Assembly: GCA_041664445.1 (NCBI GenBank)
Contig: JBAYKT010000007.1
Span: forward strand, 4,360-68,359
Length of the DNA: 64,000 nt
Source: Patescibacteria group bacterium
GTDB taxonomy: Bacteria; Patescibacteriota; Patescibacteriia; Patescibacteriales; UBA12465
Reading direction: 5' to 3'
Each line of letters starts with the position of its first letter. Positions within the stretch are counted from its first letter, which is position 1. Under the pieces are notes generated by a model. That model was not told the origin of the DNA. It searched no databases and saw nothing but the letters and a program-made list of their open reading frames with translations. Shown one piece after another: positions 27,703-45,599 of the stretch. The translations under genes were made by a program, and so were the position numbers.

Positions 27703-30084
27703 TTATCTAGAATTATTAGCCGGCTCAGTAGTTTCCGTCATAGTTGATGTAGTTGTGGCCGGTGTAGTCGTAGCCGGAGTTGTCTCTGGTATTGTAGTTG
27801 TCGCTGGCGTAGTCGTAGCCGGAGTTGTCTCTGGTATTGTAGTTGTCGCTGGCGTGGTTGTGGCTGGCGTTGTAGTTGCGCTTGTCTCTATAGTTGGCGT
27901 GGTTGTCGCCGTTCCGCCATCTTGAATAGTTGTTTCAGTCATCGAAGATTCAGAGCCTTCTGATTCTATCGGCATTTCTTCGGATCCAATCGAATCAGTG
28001 TTTTCCGGAACATCATCCGTGGTAATGATATAGTCCTCGACGCTCGGAGTCAATAACAAAGAACCAACTTCACTTAGATTATCAATTTTATTAATCTTTA
28101 AAAATTTATTGGAAAATGTCAATAAATTATTATCCGCTAGTGTGCTGTAACGGACGGTGTTGTCATAATAGCTAAATCCTCCCCAAGAATCAGCCGTTGA
28201 CATCAAGCCGCCACGAGAATGGTCAATCCTCCCTTTAAGATTTAGGACGCCACCATCAGTAGAAAAAACTAAAGCCCCGGAAAACGACAAACGACCGCTA
28301 TCATAAAGCGACACCGGCACCGAAACAATATTGCCGCTAATTGAATTATAAAGCGCTTCATAGTTATCCAGCGCCATAGAATTACTGCTCGCATCGCCGA
28401 TAACATAACCGCTAAGCTCTTTGGGGCTTTGTAAATCAGAAAAATCAAACAGTGATAATTTTAAACCAGTTTTTATTAATGATGATTCGGCTCCGGTTTC
28501 CAGATTACGACCAAAACTTAATAAAATATTCCCTTTATCATCTGCTTGGTAAATTTGCGCGGAAGAATTTGGTATTTGCACCGCCCCTAAAATTCCCGGC
28601 TTAGCGCTATCAGAAAAATCAGCGACATAGAGAGCGTCACTCACTTTGGCAGTTTTTAAATAAGCCCGATTACCCATAAATTTTACTGAATGGATTTTAG
28701 CGCCGGTAGCAATATTTTCCAATTTACCAAGCGACCGCAGGCCGTCGTCCAGCACATAAAGGTTATTGTATACTTTAGTAGTATCTTTAAAAAGTTTAGA
28801 CCACATTTCATTGCGTGAAGCTACTAATCTAACTTGGCCGTCGCTCTCACTCAAACCTGAGCCTTTAATAATCTGCCCGAAGATGTTCCCTTTGGCTTGG
28901 TAAACTGTTTTACCGGCATCAAAAATAATTTTATAGATTGTCGTTTTTTCAATTTCATTCATGTTGGCTTTTATTTTTTCAACCAAGGAGCCATCAACAG
29001 CGGCCTGCAAACTATCTTTCTCCGAACTCGATAACGAGGCGATGTGGGCGTTAACAATGGCGGCCACTTTAGCGACTTTCTCCGAAGAACTCAAAAGAGT
29101 TTCCGACAAGGCCTCAATTTCTTCAATTTGTTGCTGATCAGCGGCGCTTAAATTATTAAAAACTTGGTCACGCTTCAACTGATTTTGTAAATCATACTCG
29201 CTAATCGAGTTGGTATAAGTTAAATAAAGACTATTCGTCGGGGCATAAGCTTCTTGATTGATATCCAATAAATAGTCATTAACATTTAAGGCCTTGCTGG
29301 TATCAGATAAACTAATGGCCGCGACTGATAGAAAATAATAATTACTATAAGAATAATCAAAATAATATACTTCCGGAACCAAGCAATTATTAGTATCTTG
29401 GCAGTCGCCGCTGACAACTTGTCCGGCCTCAAAAATTCTCGGGGTTAAAGGTTCGTCTTCAATATAATTAATATTAGCGGCCGTCATCAAATAAGCGTGG
29501 CTGCCAATCAATTTCACCCCGGTATACTTACCTTCAAATGATAAGGACCTAACTTCTTTAGGGCTAGCCGGATCGGCAACATCATATATTTTGAAAAATA
29601 CATAATCGCTTTCTCGCTTGAAAGAGTTCCAGGCGGAACTAGATTTTATTTCTGTATCAACGCCATAAACGGCCACCCGCTGTCCGGAAACTAAAATCCC
29701 CGATGGCCTAGTCGCTAAAGAAATTTTACCGACAACTTTAGCTTGCGGCGCATATAAAGAATTGGTGATAAGAATATCGTTCTTAACTAAGGTATAAATA
29801 TAGTTTCCCTCAACCGCCAACACCTCTTCATTATCAGCCCCGGGTATTGTGTTTATTATTGAAGTGGCGGCCGAATGAGAAAACATAAAATCTTTCAAAA
29901 ATGCCACATCAGAAATTTTTTTAAGGTCACCGCTTGAACCGGCGCTCTTTTGATCATTGGGAGCATAGCTAACAAGCGGCGCATCTTGAATCACCCGGTT
30001 TTTTTCCCAAGGAAAAGTACAGGCGCTGACGGTAAGCGCTACCAAGGTTAGCAAAAAAATTGCTTTAAAAGTTGATTTTAACAT
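27703..30084 (-). CDS. Secreted beta-propeller domain lipoprotein with Thr/Pro-rich C-terminal tail
   Basis: Start placed at MLKSTFKAIFLLTLVALTVSAC (lipobox-like VSAC). The segment IHSVKFMGNRAYLKTAKVSDALYVADFSDSAKPGILGAVQIPNSSAQIY resembles the bacterial Beta_propel family. The tail is (TTPATTTIPE)-type repeats. Confidence 0.7.
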   Translation of the reverse strand: MLKSTFKAIFLLTLVALTVSACTFPWEKNRVIQDAPLVSYAPNDQKSAGSSGDLKKISDVAFLKDFMFSHSAATSIINTIPGADNEEVLAVEGNYIYTLVKNDILITNSLYAPQAKVVGKISLATRPSGILVSGQRVAVYGVDTEIKSSSAWNSFKRESDYVFFKIYDVADPASPKEVRSLSFEGKYTGVKLIGSHAYLMTAANINYIEDEPLTPRIFEAGQVVSGDCQDTNNCLVPEVYYFDYSYSNYYFLSVAAISLSDTSKALNVNDYLLDINQEAYAPTNSLYLTYTNSISEYDLQNQLKRDQVFNNLSAADQQQIEEIEALSETLLSSSEKVAKVAAIVNAHIASLSSSEKDSLQAAVDGSLVEKIKANMNEIEKTTIYKIIFDAGKTVYQAKGNIFGQIIKGSGLSESDGQVRLVASRNEMWSKLFKDTTKVYNNLYVLDDGLRSLGKLENIATGAKIHSVKFMGNRAYLKTAKVSDALYVADFSDSAKPGILGAVQIPNSSAQIYQADDKGNILLSFGRNLETGAESSLIKTGLKLSLFDFSDLQSPKELSGYVIGDASSNSMALDNYEALYNSISGNIVSVPVSLYDSGRLSFSGALVFSTDGGVLNLKGRIDHSRGGLMSTADSWGGFSYYDNTVRYSTLADNNLLTFSNKFLKINKIDNLSEVGSLLLTPSVEDYIITTDDVPENTDSIGSEEMPIESEGSESSMTETTIQDGGTATTTPTIETSATTTPATTTPATTTIPETTPATTTPATTTIPETTPATTTPATTTSTMTETTEPANNSR
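27764..27853 (-). repeat. 45-bp tandem direct repeat x2 (coding, Thr/Pro-rich tail)
   Basis: gtagtcgtagccggagttgtctctggtattgtagttgtcgctggc occurs at 27764-27808 and again exactly at 27809-27853, with degenerate copies on both sides. Confidence 0.9.
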
Positions 30085-30166
30085 ATGAATGTTAGAAAAA
30101 TAATCATGCACCAAGATTATAACATATTTATCGTTTATTTTCACGGGCAAAAACTAATAAGCGATA

Positions 30167-30859
30167 TTATTTGTGAATAAAAACTTGCAGGCCGACATCT
30201 ACCCGATCAAATAAATATTGTGCCGGTCCGACGCCCAAGCGAATGCAGCCGTGAGAAACTGCTTTTCCTAAATGATTTTCGCCCTCACGATAGCCGCTAG
30301 GCCAAACCGGAAGTTCATGAATGCCGATACGGCCACGGTCCAGACCTAGCCAAAAAGGCATCCAGAGACTATAAGTTTTAGACCACGCTTTTTTAATCCG
30401 ACTCACAACCGTAAAAGTCCCCGTGGGTGTCGGCATACTGGGCTTACCGGTAGAAACCGTAAATTCTTTCCAAGCTATTCCGGAAACAAAATAAGTAAGC
30501 TTTTGCTCTTTTAGAGATATATCTACTTTTTGAGTTAACTTCTTAGTGGAGGTGGAGAGCGGGTCAAAGGCGAAATCAATTTCTGCAAAATCAGAATAGC
30601 CGTCAGCATCGGTATCGGCTAAAAGTGGATTGGTCTTAAATTTAATTTCCAAATCATCACTCAAGCTATCCTTATCAACATCGCTCTCGGTAATTTTTAT
30701 CGACTCAACATTAAAAGGCGACCAACCATTTTTTATTTCTATGTCATCAGTATAACCATCGCCGTCGGAATCGACGGCTTCTTCGGCTTTTAGGGTTTTT
30801 GGCCCTAAGACAAAAAACGCCAGCAACAACAAATAAATTATAAATTTTCGATATTTCAT
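30167..30859 (-). CDS. L,D-transpeptidase (YkuD domain) with thrombospondin-type-3-like Ca-binding repeats
   Basis: Signal peptide MKYRKFIIYLLLLAFFVL. Repeats DSDGDGYTDDIE, DVDKDSLSDDLE and DTDADGYSDFAE. Catalytic HELP...SHGCIRL. The ATG overlaps the upstream stop (TAATG). Confidence 0.8.
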   Translation of the reverse strand: MKYRKFIIYLLLLAFFVLGPKTLKAEEAVDSDGDGYTDDIEIKNGWSPFNVESIKITESDVDKDSLSDDLEIKFKTNPLLADTDADGYSDFAEIDFAFDPLSTSTKKLTQKVDISLKEQKLTYFVSGIAWKEFTVSTGKPSMPTPTGTFTVVSRIKKAWSKTYSLWMPFWLGLDRGRIGIHELPVWPSGYREGENHLGKAVSHGCIRLGVGPAQYLFDRVDVGLQVFIHK

Positions 30860-32439
30860 TATTTTTGTTTTTTGATAATTGAATATTCGCAGCCGCAAAA
30901 TTTTTGACGATACATTTTTAATTCCTTGGCTAATTCTTGCGAGCGTCGATAAGCATCATCAGCTTGAAAATCTTCATCTAAAAATTTAATTCCCTTCTCG
31001 GCGGCTAACTTCCGCGACATCTTAACAATCGCTTCTTTATCTTTATAAGGACTAACGGTTAAGGAGGTGGCAAAAAAATCAAATTTTTTAGCGACCGCCA
31101 AATTAACGGTCGCGCGCAGGCGGTCTAAATAACAAATTTGGCAACGGGCGCCGCGCTCCGGGTCTGCTTCCCGCCCCTTTACCAACTCACACCAATTCTG
31201 ATGTTCATACGGAACGACGATTAACGGAATGGAAAATTTGGCCGCCATTAATTTTACATATTGTAGGCGTTTATCATATTCCTCTTGGGAAACTAAATTA
31301 GGGTTATAAAAAAACCAAGTTAAGCGGTAACGCGGCAACAAGCGGACGCTACTGATATAAGTTGCGCAGGGCGCACAGCAAATATGCAAGAGCAAAGATG
31401 GTTTCAATTTTTCCTGGCGCTTATCCAAAAATTGAAAAATAATAACAATCGCCAACATAATTAATAACAGTAGCAGCAACACCAAAAGCTTTCCTCGGCT
31501 CTGAAGAAATAAACCGCTTAAACCGAAAACTAGAGAGAAAAAATAAAATACCAAAACTGTTTGCCGCTGATTTAAACCTAAATTTAAAAGCCGATGATGA
31601 AGATGTTTATTGTCGGCAAAACGAAAAGGGTTTTTACCTTGAAAAAGACGCCTCATAATTGTCCAGGCGACATCTAAAATGGGGATACCCATGATTAATA
31701 AGGCAATCGCAATCTTTCCGCCGGAAATAATTGCCAAAACACCCAAGGCATAACCAAAAAATAAAGAACCGCCTTCGCCCAAGAAAATTTTAGCCGGGTA
31801 AAAATTAAAAATTAAAAATCCGAGCGCGGAACCCAATAAAATCACGGCCGCCAAGGCAATATCCGGTTGAAAATATTTAGTGGTCAGCGTAAATAAAAAA
31901 ATCACTAGTGCACCAATCGCTCCGACCCCGCTTACTAAACCATCAACTCCATCTAAAAGTTTAGTGGTGTACATCATTCCTAAAAGCCATAAAGCGATTA
32001 AAGCCGGTCCGACAATTACCAAATCTTTAAGATAAATAAAACCACCCAAAGGATTGGTAATTTTTTCAATTTCGACGCCGCCAATAACGATAGCTAAAAT
32101 GGCCAGTAACGGAAAAATGATTTGCCATTTGGCTGACAAATTATATTTGTCATCCAAAATACCGCCGCTAATAATGAGTAGCGCGCCAATAAAAAATCCC
32201 AGCAAATGCCGCCAGTCTAAATTTCCTGCTAAAAAACGGTCGGCATATAAAAATAAAATGGCAAAAAAAGACAAAAAAACAGCCACCCCGCCCAAGAGCG
32301 GTGTCGCCTTAACATGAATCTTGCGCTCCCCTGGTTTATCAACCAAATTAAAACGAAGCGCGATTTTTTTAACGCCCACTGTCAAAATCAGAGCTAAAAT
32401 AAAACTGGCTAAAAATGGCAGAATATAAGTTGAAAACAT
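30859..32439 (-). CDS. Fusion protein: polyprenyl-phosphate sugar-1-phosphate transferase (WecA/MraY, GT4 family) + QueH (DUF208) epoxyqueuosine reductase domain
   Basis: N-terminal ~340 aa: LVDKPGERKIHVKATPLLGG, DDKYNLS, NFYPAKIFLGEGGS and multiple TM helices. C-terminal ~185 aa: LLLHICCAPCATY, FFYNPNLVSQEEY, ERGARCQICY, MYRQKFCGCEYS. Single uninterrupted 526-codon frame. Confidence 0.8.
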   Translation of the reverse strand: MFSTYILPFLASFILALILTVGVKKIALRFNLVDKPGERKIHVKATPLLGGVAVFLSFFAILFLYADRFLAGNLDWRHLLGFFIGALLIISGGILDDKYNLSAKWQIIFPLLAILAIVIGGVEIEKITNPLGGFIYLKDLVIVGPALIALWLLGMMYTTKLLDGVDGLVSGVGAIGALVIFLFTLTTKYFQPDIALAAVILLGSALGFLIFNFYPAKIFLGEGGSLFFGYALGVLAIISGGKIAIALLIMGIPILDVAWTIMRRLFQGKNPFRFADNKHLHHRLLNLGLNQRQTVLVFYFFSLVFGLSGLFLQSRGKLLVLLLLLLIMLAIVIIFQFLDKRQEKLKPSLLLHICCAPCATYISSVRLLPRYRLTWFFYNPNLVSQEEYDKRLQYVKLMAAKFSIPLIVVPYEHQNWCELVKGREADPERGARCQICYLDRLRATVNLAVAKKFDFFATSLTVSPYKDKEAIVKMSRKLAAEKGIKFLDEDFQADDAYRRSQELAKELKMYRQKFCGCEYSIIKKQK

Positions 32440-32537: not shown

Positions 32538-32720
32538 ATGAATGACCTATCTCACATCGAAGCTAAAGCGATGGCTCAATCAGAAAACATCGCTGGCATC
32601 AAGAACAGCATTAACCGAGAGCTAAAAAAGGAGAATCCTAATCCACAAAAATTGGAAAATCTCAAAAAAACGCTCCGCCTCACAGAAAATGCGTTTTCTC
32701 GAACGCAATTAATGGTCTAA
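32538..32720 (+). CDS. Small hypothetical protein (60 aa)
   Basis: Strong SD (ACAGGAGGA) 8 nt before the ATG, followed by a terminator. Helical and charged sequence. Confidence 0.5.
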   Translation: MNDLSHIEAKAMAQSENIAGIKNSINRELKKENPNPQKLENLKKTLRLTENAFSRTQLMV

Positions 32721-32740: not shown

Positions 32741-32770
32741 AAAGCGCGCCCTAAACCAGCGCGTTTTTTT
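32741..32770. terminator. Bidirectional rho-independent terminator
   Basis: AAAGCGCGC ... GCGCGTTTTTTT, a GC stem with a CCTAAACCA loop, A-run upstream and T7 run downstream. Sits between convergent genes. Confidence 0.65.
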
Positions 32771-32773
32771 ATT

Positions 32774-35461
32774 TTATAATTCTGCGGCCTTCTCAATGAT
32801 TATTTCCGCTTTATTATTAATTACCACCTGGTCTCTTCTTTTTAACTCACCGGCTAAAATTTTATTAGCCACCGCATCTTCAACCCGTTCCTGCAACAAG
32901 CGACGTAAAGGACGCGCGCCAAATTTAGGATCATATCCGGCCTTGGCTAAAATAGTGACTCCGTCTTTATCGGCCTTTAGTCCGATTCCCTTGTCCGCCA
33001 GTATCTTTTTAATCTTCTTGAGCATCAAGGTCGTAATCGTAAAAATATTTTCCTCATTTAGAGGCTTAAAGACGATGATGCCGTCAAAACGATTAATAAG
33101 TTCCGGGCGCATATGCTCGCGCAACTGATTATCAATCAATTCCTGCTTAATAATATTTAGGCTGGTCTGAGCTTTAATCTGATCTTGAATAAAGATGGCG
33201 CCGATATTGGAAGTGGCGATAATGATTGATTCCGCAAAACTGATAGTTCTCCCCTGCCCGTCGGTCAATCGACCATCGTCCAACATTTGTAAAAATAAAT
33301 TTAAAATATCGGGATGAGCTTTTTCTACTTCATCCAACAAAACCAAAGAAAAAGGCTTTTTCCGAACAGCCTCCGTTAGATATCCTAAAGTCCCATCAAC
33401 ATCGCCAATCATTTTACGAACACTGTCTTGATTTTGATATTCACTCATATCCAAGCGAATCAGATAATCCTCACTACCAAAATAAATCGCCGAAACCGCT
33501 TTAGCGAGCTCAGTCTTACCGACACCGGTCGGGCCTAAGAATAAGAAGCTAGCAATCGGTCGCTTGCTATCTTTCATCGCTGCGCGCGCTCGGCGCAAAC
33601 TGGCTGAAACCGCCTTCACCGCCTCTTCTTGACCGACTAAACGTTCGTGAATTTCTACTTCTAAATTGAGCAATTTTTGACCCTCATCCGCGCTCACTTT
33701 ATTAACCGGGATGCCAGTCATCTCCGAAATAGCGGAAGCAATATCTTCTTTGGAACAAAAAGTTTTTTCCGGATTGTTTTTACTGGCTACAGCCGCAATC
33801 ATTGCTGCTTTTTCCAATAAGTCGATAGCCTTTGAAGGTAAAAACTTATCATGCAGATAACGCGCAGACATTTTCACGGCCTGTTCAATGGCACTATAGA
33901 CGATGTAGGTATCATACTTTGACTCCAAAAATCCGACGCGGCTTTCCAAAATTTGAATAGCGGCGTTAGTATCTGGCTCACTGATGCCAATCGTTGTCAT
34001 CACCTCTCCCAAAGATTTTTTCTCAATGTAGCGCGTATAGTTTTCAGCTGTGGCGGTCGCAATACATAGAATATGATTCTTAGATAAAGCTTCGGCTAAA
34101 ACTTCCGATAAGTCCAAACTTTCCTGACTGCCGGCGCTAATGCCAATTAAATTTTCAATATTATCAATAAATAAAATAACATTTCCAGAACGGTTAGCCT
34201 CATTAATACAATCCAATAGCCTTTCTTCGGCCACCGAAGGATTCGCTCCACTAACCAATTTGGAAACCTCCAGCTCCACCAAACGCTTATCTCTCATAAA
34301 ATCAGGCACATTTTCCTCAACCATCATCTGCGCGACACCACCGACAATTGTACTTTTACCAATACCAGTTGGCGCCACTAATAAAACGCCATTATGGCCG
34401 CCGGTAAAAATATCAAAAATTGCTTGAATTTCCTTATTGCGGCCGACGCATAAATCTAGATGCCCAAATTTAGCTTTTAAAGTTAAGTCAACGGCGAAGT
34501 GATCTAAAACCGGAGTAGCAATAGCGGTATAAGAACGATTCATCCCCGAACTGGGCTTAAAGAGCGCCAGCTGGCGATAAGCATGATAACGAGCGACTAA
34601 TAATTTATTGACCCTAAACCATTCCACGGCATTGGTAATTTTATCGGCATCAACTTCCAAATCATACATAATTTCCGCGAGCGCCGGGTCCCGTTCATAA
34701 CAAAATAAAATTATATTTAAAACATCAATGCTTTTTTGTTTCAAATTAAAGGCGTCTTGAAAAGCTAACATAAAAACTTCTTGAAGCCTATCGGAAATTT
34801 GATCATCGCCTACAGGATCTTTAGCGCTCTTAACTAACTGACGGTCAATCATCTCAATCATTTTTTTAGCATCAACATTTAGACGAATAAAGAGACTTTG
34901 AATCTCTTTGGTTCGAAGCGCCGCTCTAAAAAAATGAATAATGTCTATTTGTTTGCGATGTAATTTGCCGGCCAAAAGGAAAGCCTCTTCCAGGATTCTA
35001 TTTGTCTCGTCAGAAAAAGCGCGCGCGGCATTATAACGCTGTCTTGATTCGCGTTTAATCTTTTTATCTTCCCTAAAAAATCGATAATTTATTTTTTTAG
35101 CGCCGGCCACCGCCAAACTAAATTTATAAAAAAGAAATAAATCAAACCATAAAGACAGGAGAAAAAAAGCCACCAAAATATCCGGGCTGGACCAAAAAAA
35201 TAATATTTTTAAAGGATCGGCTTCCAAACTAGCGCGATTCAAAAATATCCAAGCCGCGAAAGCAAACCAGCCAGCAAAAATAATCAACCAAGAAAAAAAG
35301 CCTAAAATTTTATTAATCTGTTTTTCGGCCCGTTCCAAGGCGATTACCGATTTCTTAATTTTTTTATCCCAATATAAAAAGCGACCTAAAAACCAGGCCC
35401 CCCGCCCCTTAGCGGCGGTATCTTTCACAAATTCCAATTGTTCCCTGTTTCTCAAGTCCAT
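32774..35461 (-). CDS. Membrane-anchored Hsp100/Clp-family double AAA+ ATPase (no M-domain, degenerate D1)
   Basis: N-terminal ~120 aa with 2-3 TM helices (FFSWLIIFAGWFAFAAWIFL; ILVAFFLLSLWFDLFLFY). D1 has Walker A APTGIGKS and Walker B LFIDNIEN. D2 has [31 protein letters not shown] and GARPLRRLLQ. Confidence 0.8.
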   Translation of the reverse strand: MDLRNREQLEFVKDTAAKGRGAWFLGRFLYWDKKIKKSVIALERAEKQINKILGFFSWLIIFAGWFAFAAWIFLNRASLEADPLKILFFWSSPDILVAFFLLSLWFDLFLFYKFSLAVAGAKKINYRFFREDKKIKRESRQRYNAARAFSDETNRILEEAFLLAGKLHRKQIDIIHFFRAALRTKEIQSLFIRLNVDAKKMIEMIDRQLVKSAKDPVGDDQISDRLQEVFMLAFQDAFNLKQKSIDVLNIILFCYERDPALAEIMYDLEVDADKITNAVEWFRVNKLLVARYHAYRQLALFKPSSGMNRSYTAIATPVLDHFAVDLTLKAKFGHLDLCVGRNKEIQAIFDIFTGGHNGVLLVAPTGIGKSTIVGGVAQMMVEENVPDFMRDKRLVELEVSKLVSGANPSVAEERLLDCINEANRSGNVILFIDNIENLIGISAGSQESLDLSEVLAEALSKNHILCIATATAENYTRYIEKKSLGEVMTTIGISEPDTNAAIQILESRVGFLESKYDTYIVYSAIEQAVKMSARYLHDKFLPSKAIDLLEKAAMIAAVASKNNPEKTFCSKEDIASAISEMTGIPVNKVSADEGQKLLNLEVEIHERLVGQEEAVKAVSASLRRARAAMKDSKRPIASFLFLGPTGVGKTELAKAVSAIYFGSEDYLIRLDMSEYQNQDSVRKMIGDVDGTLGYLTEAVRKKPFSLVLLDEVEKAHPDILNLFLQMLDDGRLTDGQGRTISFAESIIIATSNIGAIFIQDQIKAQTSLNIIKQELIDNQLREHMRPELINRFDGIIVFKPLNEENIFTITTLMLKKIKKILADKGIGLKADKDGVTILAKAGYDPKFGARPLRRLLQERVEDAVANKILAGELKRRDQVVINNKAEIIIEKAAEL

Positions 35462-35463
35462 AT

Positions 35464-35832
35464 TTAAGCTTTAGCTTGAAAAAATAAAGCCACTAATATT
35501 AATAGCGGCAAAGCTAACCACAAAATCGCGCCGGCGATAACCAGCGCCAACCAAAAAAGTAAAGCGAGGCCACGGACGATAATTTGAATTAAGCGAATAA
35601 AAAAACTGATAACGCGTCCGGCGGCATCATACTGGCCATACATCGGTACAAAAATATTAGCGAGCCACACCCGAAAACCAAGGATTTTTTCTTGATTGCT
35701 AAAAAAAATCCATTCTTTCTTCAAGGTCTCCACAAAACCGACGCTATACCACCAAAAAGGAAAATAAATAATACTACCCAGGGTTTGAAAAATTATTTTT
35801 AGTCCGTAAGTAAAAAAATTATGTGATTGCAT
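35464..35832 (-). CDS. Small polytopic membrane protein, first gene of the operon with the membrane Clp ATPase
   Basis: 122-aa ORF with 3-4 TM helices. Its stop lies 2 nt before the ATPase start. Confidence 0.55.
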   Translation of the reverse strand: MQSHNFFTYGLKIIFQTLGSIIYFPFWWYSVGFVETLKKEWIFFSNQEKILGFRVWLANIFVPMYGQYDAAGRVISFFIRLIQIIVRGLALLFWLALVIAGAILWLALPLLILVALFFQAKA

Positions 35833-35945
35833 AAATCATTTTAATAATTTTATTTTATCATAAAATTAAAATAATCACAATTAAATTTTAGCTTAATCTA
35901 GGCGCGGAAATCTCAAAAAATGCCGAATTATAACCCGCTAAACAA

Positions 35946-35974
35946 TTGACAAGTAATGCGCCTTATATTAAGAT
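35946..35974 (+). promoter_or_regulatory. Putative clpB promoter
   Basis: TTGACA (35946-35951), 17-nt spacer, TAAGAT (35969-35974), directly abutting the CIRCE element. Confidence 0.45.
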
Positions 35975-35978: not shown

Positions 35979-36005
35979 TTAGCACTCTAATATTAGGACT
36001 GCTAA
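35979..36005 (+). promoter_or_regulatory. CIRCE operator (HrcA binding site)
   Basis: TTAGCACTC-taatattag-GACTGCTAA compared with consensus TTAGCACTC-N9-GAGTGCTAA gives 17 of 18 positions. It lies 28 nt upstream of the clpB ATG. Confidence 0.8.
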
Positions 36006-36032: not shown

Positions 36033-38672
36033 ATGTTTAATAAATTTACCGATAAATCCCAGGAAGTAATTATTAATTCCCAGGCAATCGCCTCTAATTA
36101 CGGCCAACCAAATATTGAAGCGGTTCATATTCTGCTAGCGCTTCTAGAGCAAAATGAGGGCTTAGTAAAACCGATTCTAGAAAAAATGAAAATTGACCCG
36201 GAGTTAATGGAAGAAAAAATTATCAAAACTATTAAAACTCTGCCCCAAAGCCGAATAAACCAAACGCCCGGACCGGTGCAAGCCGTATCCGGAACCGCCG
36301 AAACGGCCGCCGTTTTAGAAAGAGCGCAAAAAGAAGCAGATGGCATGAGTGATGAGTTCATCTCCACCGAACATATTTTACTCGCGCTTATCGGCGTCTC
36401 TTCCCCGGCCCAAAGAATTTTGCTGGATTTTAAAGTTGAGTACCAAGAAGTTAAAAATATTTTAAAGGAATTACGCGGCTCACAAACCATTACCGATCCT
36501 TTTCCGGAAAATAAATTCCGCGTCTTAGAAAAATATACCACCAATCTTACCGAATTAGCTCGCCAAGAAAAATTAGATCCAGTTATCGGACGTGATATGG
36601 AAATCCGCCGCATTATGCAAGTTCTGCTGCGTCGCACTAAAAACAATCCGGTACTTATCGGCGAAGCCGGAACCGGCAAAACCGCGGTGGTAGAAGGTCT
36701 AGCGCAAAGAATCGTGTCTGGCGATGTTCCAGAAAATTTAAAAAATAAAGAAATTATTGCTTTGGATTTAGGCTCAATCGTTGCTGGCGCTAAGTTTCGC
36801 GGCGAATTTGAAGACCGCTTAAAAGCAATTTTAAAAGAAGTTAAATCGCAAAATGGCCGCTTAATCTTATTTATTGATGAACTGCATACTTTAATCGGTG
36901 CCGGCGCCTCTGAAGGCTCCATGGATGCTTCTAACATGTTAAAACCGGCTCTCGCCCGTGGTGAACTGCGAACTATCGGCGCCACCACCACTAAAGAATA
37001 CCAAAAATATATTGAAAAAGATGCTGCTCTCGAAAGACGCTTCCAGCCGATTTATGTTTCCGAACCCAGCATTGAAGATACTATCAGCATGCTCCGTGGC
37101 CTCAAAGAAAAATATGAGGTTCATCATGGTGTTAGAATTACCGATAATGCCTTGATTGCCGCCGCCAAGCTGTCGCATCGCTATATCAGCGACCGTTTTT
37201 TACCGGACAAAGCTGTAGATTTAATTGATGAGGCGACTTCTTCCCTACGTATGGAAATTGATTCCATGCCGGATGAACTCGACCAATTAAAGCGTAAAAT
37301 AAACCAACTAGAGCTTAACAAAGCGGGTCTCATGACGACCGATAAAAAATCATCAAAAATCCGTGCTATTAATCAAGAACTTGCTAAAATTAAAGAAAAA
37401 TCAACACAATTAGAACTTCACTGGAACAACGAAAAAAATATTATTTCTCAAATCAGAACTTCCAAAAAAGAAATGGAAGACTTAAAAATCAAAGCTGAAA
37501 TTGCTCAAAGACAAGGAGCTGACTTAACTGAAGTTGCTAAAATAAAATATGGCCTAATTCCTGAGTTGGAACACGGAATAGACAACTTGCAAGAAGAGCT
37601 GTTGAAAATTCAAAAAAAGGGACAACGAATTCTTAAAGAAGAGGTGGATGAGGAAGATATTGCTAAAGTAGTTGCTCGCTGGACCGGAATTCCGGTCAAC
37701 AAAATGTTGCAGGATGAAATTAAAAAATTAAGCGATGCCGAAAAAGAACTCAATCAAGAAGTAGTCGGGCAAGAAGAAGCCATCAAGGCGGTTGCTAACG
37801 CCTTAAGAAGATCGCGTGCCGGCATCAACGAAGAAAAACGCCCCATTGGTTCTTTTCTATTTGTCGGACCGACCGGTGTCGGCAAAACCGAACTCGCCAA
37901 AACCTTGGCCAAGTTTATGTTTGACGACGAAAAATCATTAGTTCGTTTAGATATGAGCGAATTCATGGAAAAGCATTCGGTTGCTAAACTGATTGGCTCG
38001 CCTCCGGGTTATGTCGGCCATGACGATGGCGGCCAACTAACCGACAAAGTCCGCCGCCACCCTTACAGCGTTGTCTTGTTTGATGAAATCGAAAAGGCAC
38101 ATCCGGATATGTTTAACATCCTGCTGCAAATCTTAGACGATGGCCGGCTGACTGATTCCAAGGGACGAATGATTAATTTCAAAAACACCATCGTCATTAT
38201 GACCTCCAACCTCGGCAACGAAGTAATTAAACATTATTCCATCGGTTTTAATGACGAAAGCGATAAAAAAGAGGCCTCCAAGCTACGTGAAGGAGAAATG
38301 AAAGAAAAAATAGATAAGATTCTTAAAGAAAATTTCAAACTGGAATTTTTAAATAGAATCGATGAGATTGTTCTCTTCCATAGCTTGTCGCCGGAAGCGC
38401 TAGAGAAAATAGTTGATTTAGAATTGAATAAAGTTGAGAAACGACTGGCCAATAAAAATATCAGCGTTAAAGTCGGCCCGAAAGTCAAAAAAATGTTGGC
38501 GCAAAAAGGTTATGACATCACTTACGGTGCCCGACCGTTAAAGCGCATCATCCAAAATTTGATTTTAGATGAACTAGCGCTAGAAATTATTGAAGGTAAA
38601 ATCAAAGAAGGCGCCAAAGTAAAAATAGACTTGGGGGAACCGGAAAAAATAATTATTAAAGCCTTAAAATAA
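36033..38672 (+). CDS. clpB: Chaperone ClpB (Hsp100 disaggregase with full-length M-domain)
   Basis: Clp_N repeats, [25 protein letters not shown]1 [15 protein letters not shown], a ~130-aa coiled-coil M-domain, D2 [31 protein letters not shown]. Confidence 0.93.
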
Positions 38673-38683: not shown

Positions 38684-38705
38684 CCCGTGCTAGCGCGGGT
38701 TTTTT
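38684..38705 (+). terminator. Rho-independent terminator after clpB
   Basis: CCCGTGC (38684-38690) pairs with GCGCGGG (38693-38699) with one G-U pair, followed by TTTTTT. Confidence 0.7.
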
Positions 38706-38781
38706 GGTTGCCGAAGACCTAAAAATATATTATAATGAAAATCAACTAGTGTATAAAAAATCATTTAAAAATACAGCTACC

Positions 38782-40272
38782 ATGAAAAATCAAAAAATAA
38801 GCACAGTCTCTTTAATATTAGCGGTTTTTTCTCTTTCTTTGGCCATTTCGACGCATTTTGTAAAGGCCCAAACTGAAATAGAAGCTAATTTTAATCCTAA
38901 CAACATAATCTCCGATAATGACTTACTGAATGCTCGTTCGATGACGCTATCGGAAATCCAAAATTTTCTACAAAGCAAGAAGAGCTATTTAGCCAATTAC
39001 AGTGCCCCTAACAATAGCGGCGTCACCAAAACAGCGGCCGAAATAATTTACGATGCCACTAATCGTAACTTTGATTGTGATGGCGTCTCTTTAAGTGAAT
39101 CTCCGACTGAGGAAGAAAAACGTTTAAAGTGCAAAACTATTACCACGGTCAACCCTAAATTTATCTTAGTTCTCCTGCAAAAAGAAGCGAGCTTAATTGA
39201 GGACACTAGCCCCGCGCAAGCACGTTTAGACTGGGCTACTGGATATGGCTGTCCTGATAACTGGACCTGCAATCCTTATTACAAAGGTTTTGGCAAACAG
39301 GTAAACAGCGCTTCCCTGCAATTTTTAGCTTACATGCAAGAACAAGAAAAATATAAATACCAGGCCGGAAAAGCCTACACCTTTACCAACCCCTACGGTA
39401 CAATCTCTAACGCGCCCATGACTGTTATTCCGGAAAATAAAGCGACTGCCGCTTTATATAACTACACCCCCCATGTTTTTAACGGCAATTATAATGTCTA
39501 CAAACTTTTTAATCGTTATTTTCCCGATTCAACTTTTGTGGCCACTTACCCCGACGGTTCAGTTTTAAAAGTAGACGGCGACCCGGGAGTTTGGCTGATT
39601 GAAAAAGGTCAAAAAAGATTATTCTTAAATTATTCTTCTTTTATTTCTCGCTTCAGCCCCCAACAAATAATCAGCGTTTCCTCTAGTGCCCTGGATGGCT
39701 ACCCGATCGGAGAAGGCATTAAATTTTCCAATTACTCTTTAGTCCAGACACCGGATAAAAAAATATATATGCTAGTCGGCTCCGAAAAAAGACAATTTGA
39801 CAGCTTAACGTCCTTTAAAGCTATCGGCTTTAATGTCGCCGAGATTGAAAGCGCCAGCAGCGCCGAATTAGCCAGCTACAACGACGGGAAAACGATCACT
39901 GCGACCTCCACTTACGTAACCGGTGCCCTGCTCCAAGACACTAAAACTGGAGGTGTATTTTATGTAGAAAATAACACTAAAGCCCCGCTACTAGATAAAA
40001 TTCTATTAACAACCAGATTTAAAGATAAAAAAATAGTTAGAGTTTCCAGTACTATCTTAAATAAATACACCACCGTCGCCCCCGCCTTATTTAATGACGG
40101 AACCTTATTAAAAACTGATTCGTTCCCAACCGTCTATCTGATATCCAACGGACAAAAACGACCGTTTGCCAATGAGACCGCCTTCAAAACTTTAGGTTAT
40201 GATATGACCAATGTGATAACCATCTCTTCCAAGTTAATGTCTAATTATTCTCAAGGAGATCCGATACAATAA
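38782..40272 (+). CDS. Secreted hypothetical protein
   Basis: Start placed at the ATG giving the signal peptide MKNQKISTVSLILAVFSLSLAISTHFVKAQ; the track start is a non-ATG extension through the clpB terminator. The C-terminal half contains repeated ~60-aa modules (…VWLIEKGQKRLF…, …IYMLVGSEKRQF…, …VFYVENNTKAPL…, …VYLISNGQKRPF…). Confidence 0.65.
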   Translation: MKNQKISTVSLILAVFSLSLAISTHFVKAQTEIEANFNPNNIISDNDLLNARSMTLSEIQNFLQSKKSYLANYSAPNNSGVTKTAAEIIYDATNRNFDCDGVSLSESPTEEEKRLKCKTITTVNPKFILVLLQKEASLIEDTSPAQARLDWATGYGCPDNWTCNPYYKGFGKQVNSASLQFLAYMQEQEKYKYQAGKAYTFTNPYGTISNAPMTVIPENKATAALYNYTPHVFNGNYNVYKLFNRYFPDSTFVATYPDGSVLKVDGDPGVWLIEKGQKRLFLNYSSFISRFSPQQIISVSSSALDGYPIGEGIKFSNYSLVQTPDKKIYMLVGSEKRQFDSLTSFKAIGFNVAEIESASSAELASYNDGKTITATSTYVTGALLQDTKTGGVFYVENNTKAPLLDKILLTTRFKDKKIVRVSSTILNKYTTVAPALFNDGTLLKTDSFPTVYLISNGQKRPFANETAFKTLGYDMTNVITISSKLMSNYSQGDPIQ

Positions 40273-43440: not shown

Positions 43441-43512
43441 GGTCTCTTCGTCTAACGGCTAGGACGCCAGGTTCTCATCCTGGTAATAGGGGTTCGATTC
43501 CCCTAGGGACTA
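43441..43512 (+). tRNA. tRNA-Glu (anticodon CTC), integration target
   Basis: GGTCTCT-TC-GTCT-AACGGCTA-GGAC-G-CCAGG-TTCTCAT-CCTGG-TAAT-AGGGG-TTCGATT-CCCCT-AGGGACT-A. The acceptor stem has two G-U pairs. Confidence 0.85.
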
Positions 43513-43513
43513 C
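43468..43513 (+). repeat. attL core (within the intact tRNA-Glu)
   Basis: caggttctcatcctggtaataggggttcgattcccctagggactac is identical to 58546-58591. Confidence 0.9.
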
Positions 43514-43543
43514 AGAATAAGAAATGGGCTAAAAGCCTGTTTT

Positions 43544-44659
43544 TTATTGGGTTTTTTGAAGTATTTTAGTTTCCAGTAAATCAGAAACTAAAATATTTTT
43601 ATCATTAATTATCGGAGCGGTGACTAAATGTTGACCAAAATTATTAGCCAAGGTCTCAACCGCACCCCTTACAGCTTGAGCGGTTAGGTGAGAATAGCGC
43701 ATTGTTGTCTTAATGTCAGCATGTCCCAGTAACTCTTTAATTAGAACAATAGAAACCCCATTCTGAGCTAAGTGAGAGGCAAAGGTATGTCTTAAGGTGT
43801 GCCAACCTATTTTACGCAACCCAGCTCGGTTACAGGCTCGGTGCAACCAGTTTAAACATAAAACTGGATTAAGATGATTGCCGTCTTTATCAAAGGCTAT
43901 CCCATGCTTTTTGGCCCTTAAAATAATAAGCTCTTTAACATCTCCCAATAATGGGACATATCTAATCTTGTTACTCTTAGGACTTCCCAAATGCCCCCTA
44001 GCGATTGATTTCTGAACAGTTAATAGATTGCCCTTAAAATCAATATCATTCCATTCTAAGGCAATTAACTCTCCAAAACGAAGCCCAGTTTTAAGACCAA
44101 AAAGAATCATCTCTTTTAACATCCCGTCAGAATTATCTAATAATAACTGACATTCCTCTGAACTAAGAAAATCAAATTTTTGCGGCTGAACCTTTAGAAG
44201 TTTAACTTTAGGAGTATTTTGAATTATTCCCCATTCTTGAGCAGTATTAAAACATTTGTTTAGAACAATTAAATGATTGTTAACACTTTTATTAGACTGG
44301 CCTGACTGTATTTTATTAGCCTTATAGTTTTCAATATCTAGGTTACTAATTTTATCTAATTGTTTTTGGCCAAAGAATGGATTTAAATGGGCCCTAAGTA
44401 AACTTTCTTTATTTAGAATTTCTGAATATTTATTATTGTTCTTAACATACACTTCAAGCCAATTATCAGAGAATTCTTTAAAAGTTGGGACTGCCTTTTG
44501 CTCTTCTACTATAGGCTCTCCGCGTGCTAGCTTCTGTCGCAATAAAGCCTCATAAGCCTTAGCCCCGGCCTGAGTATTCTGCGGGCTAAGTTTACGATAT
44601 CTTTTATTTTGGCAATAAATACTTACCCAGTATTTATTCTTATTTTTATAAACGCTCAT
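43544..44659 (-). CDS. int: Tyrosine recombinase / phage-type integrase
   Basis: N-terminal SAM-like domain. Catalytic domain with GLRFGEL (Arg), HTLRHTFASHL (H-x-x-R) and LLGHADIKTTMRYSHL (His/Tyr). Confidence 0.92.
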   Translation of the reverse strand: MSVYKNKNKYWVSIYCQNKRYRKLSPQNTQAGAKAYEALLRQKLARGEPIVEEQKAVPTFKEFSDNWLEVYVKNNNKYSEILNKESLLRAHLNPFFGQKQLDKISNLDIENYKANKIQSGQSNKSVNNHLIVLNKCFNTAQEWGIIQNTPKVKLLKVQPQKFDFLSSEECQLLLDNSDGMLKEMILFGLKTGLRFGELIALEWNDIDFKGNLLTVQKSIARGHLGSPKSNKIRYVPLLGDVKELIILRAKKHGIAFDKDGNHLNPVLCLNWLHRACNRAGLRKIGWHTLRHTFASHLAQNGVSIVLIKELLGHADIKTTMRYSHLTAQAVRGAVETLANNFGQHLVTAPIINDKNILVSDLLETKILQKTQ

Positions 44660-44667
44660 ATAATTTA

Positions 44668-44865
44668 TTAGACGACTGCATCAATACGAGCATTATCTAT
44701 ATACTTTTCAATATCAGATATTTTAAATCTCAAACTGCCACTTATTTTATAAAATGGTATTTTGCGTTTTTCTATTAATCTATACACCGAAGGCTTGGAC
44801 ATTCTTAAAATTGAAGCCAGCTCATCAGGTGTTATTAAGTTGTTCGTATTGGAAACGTCGTTCAT
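44668..44865 (-). CDS. xis: Excisionase-family HTH DNA-binding protein
   Basis: 65 aa. LITPDELASILRMSKPSVYRLIEKRKIPFYKISGSLRFKISDIEKYI is the HTH_17/excisionase pattern. Located directly upstream of int. Confidence 0.8.
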   Translation of the reverse strand: MNDVSNTNNLITPDELASILRMSKPSVYRLIEKRKIPFYKISGSLRFKISDIEKYIDNARIDAVV

Positions 44866-44966
44866 TTAGTTATTAAGGAGCGATATAAGGCGAGTTAATT
44901 AAAACTCGTAGACAATATCGATCCTAACATATTTTTATGAGAATTTACATATTTTTGTTTTCCAGC

Positions 44967-45410: not shown

Positions 45411-45413
45411 AAC

Positions 45414-45599
45414 CTTGTTATTTGTTAACTGCTTGTTAAATATTCTTTAACAAATAAATTTGTTTAATATTAGTTAATTACGATTTCAGGTTATTAAAAT
45501 TCCCCAGAAGAAGGTGATATATCTTGGTTTACTAATAAACCAAGAATATTCTTCTTGTTAACTTGTTAACCTATATATAGATATTAACAAGTAACAAGC
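45414..45599. repeat. Iteron-like repeat cluster ((C/T)TTGTTAA(C) in both orientations) plus a 9-bp-stem hairpin
   Basis: Direct copies of TTGTTA(A) start at 45415, 45422, 45433, 45555 and 45563; TTGTTTAA starts at 45461. Inverted copies lie at 45447-45454 and 45583-45599 (two adjacent). Hairpin CTTGGTTTA-CTAA-TAAACCAAG at 45523-45544. Confidence 0.6.

What the first reader, a model, noticed from the sequence alone, without database searches (positions are those of the whole stretch)
32774..35832. Two-gene operon: small polytopic membrane protein + membrane-anchored ClpA/B-like double AAA+ ATPase with a hydrolysis-dead-looking D1 ring
Seen in sequence: the 895-aa ATPase begins with 2-3 TM helices, unlike soluble Hsp100s, and has Clp_N-like repeats and no coiled-coil M-domain. 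In D1, Walker A is intact (APTGIGKS). Walker B, however, is LFIDNIEN (Glu -> Asn, codon 34160-34162), and the ERRF arginine-finger block is replaced (SLGEVMT). D2 is canonical. A 122-aa 3-4-TM protein is encoded 2 nt upstream. The operon is divergent from clpB and shares its 200-bp control region, which contains CIRCE. Inference: a membrane-associated unfoldase or extraction machine, possibly stress-regulated. I do not recognise it as a named Clp subfamily.
Basis: partly seen in the sequence, partly recalled or inferred. Interest (0 to 1): 0.55.

Follow-up and report, generated by a model that had tools for sequence, protein, structure and literature searches.

The report
Membrane-anchored Hsp100 ATPase with small partner
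A group of tiny uncultured bacteria (Patescibacteria) encodes a ClpB/ClpC-like protein-remodelling motor anchored in the membrane, with one of its two engines dead and its substrate-gripping loops trimmed, always next to a small unknown membrane protein, and no such combination has been described.

Summary
ORFs 35464-35832(-) (122 aa) and 32774-35461(-) (895 aa) form a tightly coupled pair. The 895-aa protein is a class-I Clp/Hsp100 with an N-terminal two-helix membrane hairpin, a Clp_N-like domain, no M-domain and no ClpP-docking loop. D1 has lost the Walker-B Glu, both arginine fingers and the pore-loop Tyr.

Its pore loop is 5 residues shorter and lacks the GYVG tyrosine.

The pair is conserved. 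The small protein occurs in at least 574 GTDB species genomes. The ATPase follows it in 79 of 79 testable loci and in all 9 distant contexts examined. A WecA-like glycosyltransferase follows the ATPase in 63 of 64 loci.

Distant members carry an extra N-terminal 2x CxxCxGxG zinc-finger-like motif. One, from Kerfeldbacteria, keeps the arginine fingers and a full-length aromatic D2 pore loop.

CIRCE belongs to clpB, not to this operon.

Best reading: a D2-driven, protease-free membrane dislocase or remodeller working with its 2-TM partner, confidence 0.4. I found no described family that matches, so I rate it a new variant of a known kind.

The parts
35464..35832 (-). Gene for the 122-aa partner protein. 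It has two long helices (6-51 and 70-121), each a TM segment with a cytoplasmic extension, joined by an invariant loop W56-x-x-N59-x-F-V-P63-M64-Y-G-Q67-x-D. Further invariant residues are F24, P25, W27, W28, Y29, G32, R80, Q83 and R87.
   Evidence: ORF. No Pfam, NCBIfam or PADLOC hit. 173 homologues. 494 clusters at 50% identity, all about 120 aa. Alignment A1. AF2 pLDDT 91.6. No PDB fold match, best E = 1.5.
32774..35461 (-). Gene for the 895-aa membrane-anchored Clp/Hsp100-type double AAA+ protein.
35108..35305 (-). TM helical hairpin of the ATPase (about aa 53-74 and 93-118) with a short external loop. The flanks are K/R-rich, which gives an N-in/C-in topology.
   Evidence: Hydropathy (two segments in 65 of 71 members). 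Conservation. AF2 helices 37-74 and 95-121.
34559..35017 (-). Clp_N-like helical N-domain (about aa 149-301).
   Evidence: Aligns to the ClpB N-domain and to ClpA model positions 2 onward. Precomputed Pfam Clp_N hit. Significant Clp_N hits in distant members. Eight helices in the AF2 model.
33767..34504 (-). D1 pseudo-ATPase module (about aa 320-565). Walker A is GIGKS. Walker B is D433-N434 (codon 34160-34162). There are no arginine fingers (GEVMT) and no pore-loop aromatic residue.
32777..33694 (-). D2 active ATPase module plus the D2-small domain (about aa 590-895). Walker A GPTGVGKT, Walker B LLDEVE, sensor 1 TSN, arginine finger GQGR and sensor 2 GARPLRR are intact. There is no IGF/ClpP loop.
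33380..33406 (-). Truncated D2 pore loop G686-D-V-D-G-T-L-G-Y694. It is 5 residues shorter than in ClpB/ClpC, with Thr at the canonical Tyr position. Tyr694 falls in the first turn of the following helix.
   Evidence: AF2 shows the loop at 686-690 and helix 691-701, with low local pLDDT.
35852..35880 (-). Best sigma-70-like promoter match for the operon (TTGTGA-17-TAAAAT with an extended TG), about 20 nt upstream of the small gene.
   Evidence: This is a consensus match only, and the count of such sites in the region is not above the shuffled background.
32745..32763 (-). Terminator-like hairpin plus T-run immediately after the ATPase stop codon. In the window this separates the pair from the downstream GT4-QueH gene.
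30859..32439 (-). Conserved downstream neighbour: a WecA-like polyprenyl-phosphate HexNAc-1-P transferase (Glycos_transf_4) fused to QueH.
   Evidence: It is on the same strand downstream of the ATPase in 63 of 64 loci, with an estimated gap of 60 nt or less in 39. It is also present in distant loci L084 and L086.
35979..36005 (+). CIRCE operator (TTAGCACTC-N9-GACTGCTAA). This is context only: it belongs to clpB, not to this operon.
36033..38672 (+). Divergent clpB. This is a lineage-specific neighbour and not part of the system.

Best explanation
The two genes encode a housekeeping membrane complex specific to Patescibacteria.

Shown:
- The ATPase is a Clp/Hsp100 double-ring AAA+ protein. An N-terminal helical hairpin holds it in the cytoplasmic membrane, with both ends of the hairpin in the cytoplasm.
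- D1 is a degenerate ring that cannot hydrolyse ATP. D2 keeps every catalytic motif.
- It has no M-domain, so it lacks the element ClpB uses for DnaK coupling. It has no ClpP-docking loop, so it does not feed a protease.
- It is always encoded directly after a 2-TM protein. That protein's invariant FVPMYGQxD loop and its R80/Q83/R87 face are cytoplasmic by charge distribution and by the AF2 model.

Inferred:
- As in other Hsp100s it forms a hexamer. Because the anchor is N-terminal, the N-domain/D1 entry face looks at the membrane, as in FtsH and Msp1.
- D2 is the only motor, and D1 is a nucleotide-stabilised scaffold.
- The machine engages membrane-embedded or membrane-proximal proteins and pulls or remodels them towards the cytoplasm. 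This would make it a protease-free dislocase or assembly and quality-control factor.
- The partner acts as a co-embedded adaptor or scaffold that contacts the TM hairpin and the N-domain face.
- The ancestral form had a cytoplasmic DnaJ-type zinc-finger-like client-binding module and a normal aromatic D2 pore loop.
- In the window's lineage the zinc finger is lost and the pore loop is shortened. This suggests weak or specialised grip on a narrow client set, possibly the envelope-biosynthesis machinery encoded downstream (the WecA-like transferase), rather than general unfolding.
For: - Domain content and motif states.
- TM hairpin and topology.
- No M-domain.
- No IGF loop, and the site is 10 aa shorter than in the neighbouring ClpB.
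- Obligate pairing: 79 of 79 loci; distant contexts; reverse direction.
- Typical gene gap of 1-15 nt or overlap, which implies translational coupling.
- At least 574 GTDB species carry the small protein, in 494 clusters at 50% identity.
- The region is chromosomal, single-copy, and syntenic with def/fmt, TGT and clpB.
- The small protein is absent from the plasmid and phage collections, and there is no PADLOC system membership.
- The Kerfeldbacteria member keeps LRRF and a GFSG full-length D2 loop. Distant members carry 2x CxxCxGxG.
- The WecA-like GT4 follows in 63 of 64 loci.
- From established knowledge, not tested here: substrate enters Hsp100 hexamers at the N-domain/D1 face and exits at D2. 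FtsH and Msp1 are N-terminally anchored and extract membrane proteins. FtsH with LapB controls LpxC, which is a precedent for a membrane AAA+ protein regulating envelope synthesis.
Against: - In the window's lineage and in most branches neither ring has the aromatic-hydrophobic-Gly pore loop that all characterised threading Hsp100s, FtsH and Msp1 use. Processive extraction is therefore doubtful there.
- No substrate, oligomeric state, partner contact or expression data exist.
- The partner contact is inferred only from gene linkage and topology. No multimer model could be run.
- Synteny with GT4 is mostly within one large lineage plus two distant loci. It could be inherited gene order rather than a functional link.
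- The AF2 model of D2 is of modest confidence (pLDDT 50-68).
Confidence: 0.4

Rival explanations
1. Non-threading conformational motor or regulator. ATP turnover in D2 drives a concerted movement, transmitted through the rigid D1/N-domain to the TM hairpins and the partner. This would gate, assemble or regulate a membrane complex such as the WecA-like transferase or another envelope machine, without pulling a polypeptide through the pore. The analogy is to Bcs1 or torsin-type AAA+ action.
For: - The D2 pore loop is 5 aa shorter. The residue at the canonical Tyr position is variable (T, S, A, L, Q, G, V) across branches.
- The D1 pore loop is non-aromatic everywhere.
- The truncated loop itself is strongly conserved, so it is under selection rather than decaying.
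- There is a tight, near-universal link to the GT4 gene.
- The partner has invariant polar residues at the membrane-cytoplasm interface.
Against: - The Kerfeldbacteria member keeps a normal aromatic D2 loop and arginine fingers, so the ancestral mode was probably threading.
- A Tyr three positions downstream (GY-LTE) is mostly conserved and could substitute at the pore.
- No characterised Hsp100 works this way.
Confidence: 0.25
2. Protein-conducting translocon. Six TM hairpins plus six partners (24 helices) form a membrane conduit coaxial with the AAA+ pore. Proteins would move across the membrane as in PTEX (HSP101-EXP2). Given the N-terminal anchoring, the direction would be import or retro-translocation into the cytoplasm.
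For: - Membrane anchoring plus an obligate TM partner.
- The entry face points at the membrane (inference).
- From general knowledge, not tested here: Patescibacteria are reduced and often episymbiotic, with unexplained uptake needs.
Against: - The external loop is only about 6-20 residues.
- The TM segments are strongly hydrophobic, with no evident polar pore lining.
- The pore loops are reduced.
- No secretion or pilus genes are conserved nearby.
Confidence: 0.1
3. Membrane tether or hetero-oligomer partner for the neighbouring ClpB. The D1-dead paralogue would co-assemble with or recruit ClpB to the membrane, as inactive subunits do in Pex1/Pex6 or FtsH/FtsHi.
For: Divergent clpB is adjacent in about 50 of 80 loci. 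D2 is 45% identical to that ClpB.
Against: - The pair exists without clpB nearby in about 30 Falkowbacteria-type loci and in all distant lineages examined.
- It lacks an M-domain, so the ring geometry differs from ClpB.
- CIRCE tracks clpB only.
Confidence: 0.05
4. Two-gene anti-phage or toxin-like system, with an AAA+ sensor or motor plus a small TM effector.
For: The architecture superficially resembles ATPase plus TM-effector defence pairs. There are weak PADLOC hits to DolB and PDC-M37B over the AAA_2 domain only.
Against: - The synteny is chromosomal, core-like and conserved across hundreds of species.
- Sequence conservation is high.
- The small protein has no PADLOC hit.
- It is absent from phages and plasmids.
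- The window's actual mobile island (43.4-58 kb) is elsewhere.
Confidence: 0.03
5. Annotation artefact: the true start lies downstream and the protein is a soluble Clp.
For: There is no obvious Shine-Dalgarno sequence before the ATG.
Against: - The N-terminal 130 residues are conserved at protein level across the family, including distant branches.
- The start abuts the partner's stop codon in 79 loci.
- The next Met is at residue 201, inside the N-domain.
Confidence: 0.01

Closest known systems
ClpC / ClpB (class-I Clp/Hsp100 AAA+ unfoldases and disaggregases)
   Same: - Same fold and domain order: Clp_N, D1 (AAA + AAA_lid_9), D2 (AAA_2 + ClpB_D2-small).
- These are the best PDB sequence hits, at 449 bits (ClpC) and 438 bits (ClpB), and the best fold hits.
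- D2 is 45% identical to the genome's own ClpB.
   Different: - It has an N-terminal TM hairpin.
- It has no M-domain.
- It has no IGF loop.
- D1 lacks the Walker-B Glu, the arginine fingers and the pore Tyr.
- The D2 pore loop is truncated.
- It has an obligate small membrane partner.
- NCBIfam scores are far below the cut-offs: 564 against 1232 for ClpB and 479.5 against 993 for ClpA.
ClpA
   Same: It is collinear end to end with the ClpA model without an M-domain insertion: residues 150-881 match model positions 2-732 of 734.
   Different: It has no IGL ClpP-docking loop, a dead D1 and a TM anchor. Sequence similarity is lower than to ClpC or ClpB (308 bits).
FtsH
   Same: From general knowledge: FtsH is a bacterial AAA+ hexamer anchored by two N-terminal TM helices per subunit, with its entry face towards the membrane. 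It is often modulated by small membrane proteins and it controls the envelope-biosynthesis enzyme LpxC.
   Different: FtsH has a single AAA ring, a fused M41 protease, an aromatic pore loop and a sizeable periplasmic domain. None of these is present here, and no Peptidase_M41 hit was found.
Msp1/ATAD1 and Pex1-Pex6/Pex15(26)
   Same: From general knowledge: these are protease-free AAA+ dislocases acting at a membrane. Pex1/Pex6 has an inactive D1 ring and an active D2 ring, and needs a small membrane-anchor protein.
   Different: They are eukaryotic and unrelated in lineage. They retain aromatic pore loops. In Pex1/6 the anchor is the partner rather than the ATPase itself.
PTEX HSP101-EXP2
   Same: This is the only well-characterised case of a ClpB-type Hsp100 coupled to a membrane pore (general knowledge; HSP101 is a PDB hit at 296 bits).
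   Different: HSP101 is soluble and docks to the pore through its D2 face to export proteins. Here the anchor is N-terminal, which implies the opposite orientation.

Membership tests
Clp/Hsp100 class I (double-ring AAA+) | Two tandem AAA+ modules with AAA_lid_9 and ClpB_D2-small domains | tested here: met
   Pfam: AAA 71 bits, AAA_lid_9 53 bits, AAA_2 176 bits, ClpB_D2-small 78 bits. Fold hits to ClpC, ClpB and Hsp104.
Clp/Hsp100 class I (double-ring AAA+) | Clp_N N-terminal domain | tested here: met
   The window protein did not reach E <= 0.01 in my hmmscan. It does carry a precomputed Clp_N hit. It aligns to the ClpB and ClpA N-domains. Distant members score 25-37 bits, above the 20.7 cut-off.
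ClpB (TIGR03346) | Long coiled-coil M-domain inserted in the D1 small subdomain | tested here: not met
   The alignment to the window's ClpB breaks into two blocks that skip the M-domain. There are no residues available between 553 and 566.
ClpB (TIGR03346) | Equivalog score at or above the cut-off | tested here: not met
   564 bits against a cut-off of 1232.1.
ClpB (TIGR03346) | Both rings hydrolysis-competent, with Tyr pore loops (KYRG in D1, GYVG in D2) | tested here: not met
   D1 has D-N and no RR. Neither canonical Tyr is present.
ClpA / ClpC / ClpE (ClpP-coupled unfoldases) | IG(F/L) ClpP-docking loop after sensor 1 of D2 | tested here: not met
   The segment is 10 aa shorter than in the window's ClpB and contains no hydrophobic-Gly-hydrophobic tripeptide in any branch.
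ClpA / ClpC / ClpE (ClpP-coupled unfoldases) | Equivalog score (ClpA TIGR02639) | tested here: not met
   479.5 bits against a cut-off of 993.15.
ClpV / TssH (type VI secretion) | Equivalog score and a T6SS gene neighbourhood | tested here: not met
   443 bits against a cut-off of 885. There are no T6SS genes in 20 kb of context.
FtsH | Single AAA module fused to an M41 zinc protease | tested here: not met
   No Peptidase_M41 hit, and two AAA modules are present.
FtsH | Two N-terminal TM helices per protomer | tested here: met
   This is an analogy of architecture only.
Known anti-phage defence systems (PADLOC) | Both components match models of one system | tested here: not met
   Only generic AAA_2-level hits of about 110 bits for the ATPase, and none for the partner.
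DnaJ-type zinc finger (CxxCxGxG), distant family members only | Paired CxxCxGxG motifs recognised by PF00684 | tested here: inconclusive
   The motifs are present by inspection in L083, L085, L086, L087 and L088. The Pfam DnaJ_CXXCXGXG, Anti-TRAP and BSD2_CRD hits have E = 0.02-0.16, below the cut-offs. The motifs are absent from the window protein.
HrcA/CIRCE heat-shock regulon | CIRCE operator overlapping or just downstream of the gene's own promoter | tested here: not met
   CIRCE follows the clpB promoter and lies about 100 bp upstream of the -35 hexamer of the operon's promoter-like site. It tracks clpB in 48 of 48 loci and is absent in 34 loci without an adjacent clpB.

The most novel reading that the evidence does not exclude
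This would be a previously unrecognised class of bacterial membrane machine: an Hsp100 hexamer whose own 12 TM helices, together with 12 from an obligate partner, form an integral-membrane assembly. It would be driven by a single active ring that has abandoned the aromatic pore-loop threading mechanism. It would act on membrane or envelope-biogenesis components such as the WecA-like transferase or its lipid-linked pathway by a non-canonical mechanism, and it would be a core feature of a major Patescibacteria lineage.
Probability: 0.25. Interest if true: 0.8.

Novelty: new variant of a known kind. Interest (0 to 1): 0.6.

Why it matters
All characterised Clp/Hsp100 proteins are soluble, and they grip substrates with conserved pore-loop tyrosines. 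This family differs in being natural, widespread (at least 574 species) and strongly conserved while combining four unusual features:
- It is membrane-integral.
- It runs on D2 alone.
- It has trimmed pore loops.
- It is locked to an unknown 2-TM partner.

It therefore offers a new test case for how AAA+ rings couple to membranes, and for what a pore-loop-reduced Hsp100 can do.

The family also contains an internal evolutionary series. The Kerfeldbacteria form keeps a zinc-finger-like motif, arginine fingers and an aromatic loop. The Falkowbacteria form has lost all three. That series could be used to dissect which features matter.

For Patescibacteria biology it assigns a candidate role to two conserved 'hypothetical' or generically annotated genes. 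These sit next to cell-envelope genes in organisms whose envelope and membrane proteostasis are essentially unstudied.

Tried and rejected
- Third homologue search, using the Kerfeldbacteria N-terminal region, returned nothing. The word filter was swamped. I reached distant branches through small-protein representatives and context look-ups instead.
- The afdb50 fold library was unavailable.
- Foldseek of the small-protein model against the PDB gave no hit better than E = 1.5. I drew no fold-based inference for the partner.
- Foldseek of the ATPase model returned only ClpC, ClpB and Hsp104, which added nothing beyond the sequence comparison.
- PADLOC and the plasmid and phage collections were negative. 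I rejected the defence or mobile-element reading.
- Four literature searches found no description of a TM-anchored Clp/Hsp100. The library lacks most subscription-journal papers, so prior description cannot be fully excluded.
- I rejected regulation of the operon by CIRCE/HrcA as a family trait.
- I rejected the 60-aa ORF at 32538-32720(+) as part of the system. It is conserved only in the two closest relatives.
Placement rests on HMM and phmmer score ranking only.
Every conclusion drawn from it is independently supported by the window's own ClpB and by PDB ClpC.


Full report
**1. Observation**

The window holds ORFs at 35464-35832(-) (122 aa) and 32774-35461(-) (895 aa), separated by 2 nt. 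clpB lies at 36033-38672(+), 200 bp upstream and divergent.

Pfam finds AAA, AAA_lid_9, AAA_2 and ClpB_D2-small in the 895-aa protein and nothing in the 122-aa protein. NCBIfam scores are far below every equivalog cut-off: ClpB 564 against 1232, ClpA 479.5 against 993, and ClpV 443 against 885. By contrast, the neighbouring gene scores 1202 for ClpB.

BLASTP against that ClpB gives 45% identity over D2 and 25% over the N-domain plus D1. It skips the M-domain entirely. In that alignment:
- the D1 Walker A is intact (APTGIGKS)
- the D1 Walker B reads FIDNIEN against FIDELHT, with Asn434 at codon 34160-34162
- ALERRFQ becomes SLGEVMT
- the D1 pore loop [10 protein letters not shown] becomes SGAN-PSVAE

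**2.

D2 keeps Walker A, Walker B (LLDEVEKAH), sensor 1, the arginine finger and sensor 2. Its pore loop, however, is GDVDGTLGY-LTE where ClpB and ClpC have GSPPGYVG(H/Y)-5 residues-LTE.

The loop is 5 residues shorter, and Thr occupies the position of the substrate-gripping Tyr. In the AF2 model the loop is residues 686-690. Tyr694 lies in the first turn of helix 691-701, although local confidence there is low.

The site where ClpC carries its ClpP-docking VGF loop is 10 residues shorter than in the neighbouring ClpB and has no such tripeptide.

**3. The N-terminus is real and forms a membrane hairpin**

Hydropathy gives two segments, at about 53-74 and 93-118. The flanks are K/R-rich and the connecting loop is 6-20 residues, so the topology is N-in/C-in.

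Two such segments occur in 65 of 71 family members. Residues 19-31 (GRGAWFLGRFLYW) and the second TM segment (SLWFDLFL.YK) are among the best-conserved parts of the N-terminal region in 119 homologues.

AF2 models helices 37-74 and 95-121 at pLDDT about 80-89. They are followed by an eight-helix Clp_N-like domain. The next in-frame Met is residue 201. The 'mispredicted start' refutation therefore fails.

**4. The partner**

The 122-aa protein has 173 close homologues, all unannotated and all about 120 aa. A profile search finds 494 clusters at 50% identity, again stand-alone proteins of about 120 aa.

Invariant residues cluster in three places:
- FPxWWYxxG (residues 24-32)
- WxxNxFVPMYGQxD (residues 56-69)
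- ISFxxRxxQxxxR (residues 75-87)

AF2 gives a helical hairpin of two very long helices, 6-51 and 70-121, with mean pLDDT 91.6. From the hydropathy and the positive charge of the central part, I read this as two TM segments whose cytoplasmic extensions carry the invariant loop at their tip (inference).

Foldseek against the PDB finds nothing significant.

**5. Conservation of the pair**

The best 80 loci are mostly Candidatus Falkowbacteria.

In 79 of the 80 loci, an ORF with the homologous TM-plus-N-domain region follows directly, typically 1-15 nt away or overlapping. In the remaining locus the contig ends 147 nt after the small gene.

Divergent small-protein representatives led to distant lineages. 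These include Candidatus Kerfeldbacteria (L083) and loci L084-L090. In every case a Clp-like gene follows the small gene.

In the reverse direction, three ATPase homologues (P0001, P0016 and P0098) are each preceded by a 122-aa gene.

The small protein is absent from the plasmid and phage collections. Neither protein fits a PADLOC defence system.

**6. Motif states across the family**

D1:
- The Walker A residue after Lys is S, T, R, K, N or M.
- Walker B is never D-E. It reads DN, NN, AN, PD, EN, QG or SD, and DD in the Kerfeldbacteria protein.
- The arginine fingers are present only in the Kerfeldbacteria protein (LRRF).
- The pore loop is never aromatic.

D2:
- All catalytic motifs are intact in every member.
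- The pore loop is short in every branch except the Kerfeldbacteria protein, which has the full-length GPPPGFSGASQGGELTD with an aromatic residue.
- In the short-loop forms the residue at the canonical Tyr position varies (T, S, A, L, Q, G, V).
- The downstream GY-LTE Tyr is mostly kept. It is His in L088 and Leu in L090.

Within the Falkowbacteria-type members the truncated loop is nearly invariant. It is therefore selected rather than decaying.

Distant members also carry two CxxCxGxG motifs before the TM hairpin, for example CPQCGGIG...CGRCGGRA in L086. These resemble the DnaJ zinc finger, but Pfam support is below threshold, with E = 0.02-0.16. The window protein lacks the cysteines but keeps three short beta-strands there.

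**7. Neighbourhood and regulation**

CIRCE is at 35979-36005 with 1 mismatch, against 0.01 expected by chance. It lies immediately after the best promoter match for clpB (TTGACA-17-TAAGAT, 35946-35974). It is about 100 bp upstream of the -35 hexamer of the best promoter-like site for the divergent operon (35880-35852).

Across loci, CIRCE lies 10-118 nt upstream of clpB in 48 of 48 cases. It is absent upstream of the small gene in all 34 loci where clpB is not adjacent. clpB adjacency holds in about 50 of 80 loci and in none of the distant lineages, where TGT or another gene lies upstream. CIRCE-based stress regulation is therefore a property of clpB.

A Glycos_transf_4 gene, by contrast, is closely linked. 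It is nearest to WecA (127 bits) and is not MraY. It follows the ATPase on the same strand in 63 of 64 testable loci, at an estimated 60 nt or less in 39 of them. It also follows in distant loci L084 and L086. It is fused to QueH in 37 loci and adjacent to a separate QueH in 20 loci.

In the window itself there is a 334-nt gap with a terminator-like hairpin after the ATPase. Further downstream in the Falkowbacteria block lie a YkuD L,D-transpeptidase and a beta-propeller protein.

**8. Mechanism**

Shown:
- The protein is anchored in the membrane.
- Both ends of the anchor are cytoplasmic.
- D1 is dead and D2 is catalytically competent.
- There is no M-domain and no ClpP loop.
- There is an obligate partner.
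- The pair is housekeeping-like in distribution.

Inferred from established Hsp100 architecture: the protein forms a hexamer, substrate enters at the N/D1 face and exits at D2, and so an N-terminal anchor puts the entry face against the membrane, as in FtsH and Msp1. This geometry suits pulling or remodelling membrane-embedded or membrane-proximal clients towards the cytoplasm. It is the opposite of the export geometry of PTEX HSP101.

The less-derived Kerfeldbacteria form argues that threading through D2 is ancestral. It has a zinc-finger-like module, arginine fingers and an aromatic D2 loop.

The trimmed loop in the window's lineage argues for a weak-grip or specialised mode, or for a non-threading mode. 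I therefore give 0.40 to a protease-free, D2-driven membrane dislocase or remodeller acting with its partner. The narrow client set possibly includes the envelope-biosynthesis machinery encoded downstream.

The rivals are:
- 0.25 for a non-threading conformational regulator
- 0.10 for a translocon
- 0.05 for a ClpB tether or hetero-oligomer
- 0.03 for a defence system
- 0.01 for an artefact

**9. Comparison and novelty**

By sequence and fold, the closest relatives are ClpC and ClpB. By collinearity it is ClpA. By architecture the closest analogues are FtsH, Msp1 and Pex1/Pex6 with their membrane anchor.

The protein fails defining features of each:
- the M-domain and two active rings for ClpB
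- the IGF loop for ClpA, ClpC and ClpE
- the fused protease and single ring for FtsH

It meets the definition of a class-I Clp/Hsp100.

Sources annotate it only as 'ATP-dependent Clp protease ATP-binding subunit (ClpC)' or 'AAA family ATPase', and the partner as 'hypothetical'. Four full-text searches found no description.

I rate it a new variant of a known kind, with interest 0.6. It would be surprising to AAA+ specialists and it can be tested directly, but no functional data exist.

Noticed in passing
window 36033-38672 (+), and the clpB neighbours in 48 loci (for example L003 5161-7800): The neighbouring 'ClpB' has a full-length ClpB-type M-domain. Its TIGR03346 score is 1202 bits, just under the 1232 cut-off. 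It also carries a ClpC-like SIGF tripeptide loop directly after sensor 1 of D2 ([19 protein letters not shown]). The IGF is present in 48 of 48 Falkowbacteria clpB genes. This looks like a natural counterpart of the engineered ClpP-binding ClpB ('BAP'). It suggests that this one protein may serve as both disaggregase and ClpP partner in these reduced genomes.
   Followed up: partly
window 30859-32439 (-); L092 6680-8290; L083 6049-7134; L086 1782-2882: A WecA-like Glycos_transf_4 is fused to the queuosine enzyme QueH in 37 loci and sits next to a separate QueH in 20 loci. In distant lineages the other queuosine-pathway gene, TGT, lies upstream of the small gene. The recurring proximity of queuosine genes to this operon is unexplained.
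   Followed up: partly
window 43441-58073: A low-GC island (0.28-0.34 against 0.38-0.42) is inserted next to tRNA-Glu (43441-43513). It carries a tyrosine integrase (43544-44659), a Terminase_2-like small protein (44967-45410), an AAA_25 protein (45602-46696) and a complete type I restriction-modification system, hsdS/M/R (52669-58073).
   Followed up: partly
L083 8393-8520; L085 1243-1400; L086 6426-6540; L087 501-590; L088 6508-6610: Distant family members have two CxxCxGxG motifs (DnaJ, Anti-TRAP or BSD2-type zinc-finger-like) at the extreme N-terminus, before the TM hairpin. The cysteines are lost in the window's lineage, which retains only short beta-strands there.
   Followed up: partly
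window 32538-32720 (+): A 60-aa ORF lies on the opposite strand in the 334-nt gap between the ATPase and the GT4-QueH gene. It is conserved only in the two closest relatives, L003 and L004. It is probably not a gene, or it is very lineage-specific.
   Followed up: partly
L084 (ENA contig_6296): This long-read-style contig has the whole region broken into many short ORFs, including the ATPase split into at least 6 pieces and a 414-aa 'fusion' containing the small protein. The most likely cause is frameshift errors in the assembly rather than real pseudogenes.
   Followed up: no
window 38704-40272 (+) and 27703-30150 (-): A conserved 522-aa protein with a signal/TM-like N-terminus and no Pfam hit lies downstream of clpB and is found in 49 loci. 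An 815-aa Beta_propel (PF09826) protein has a Thr/Pro-rich repeat tail (TTPATTTPATTT...). Both belong to the conserved envelope-related block.
   Followed up: no
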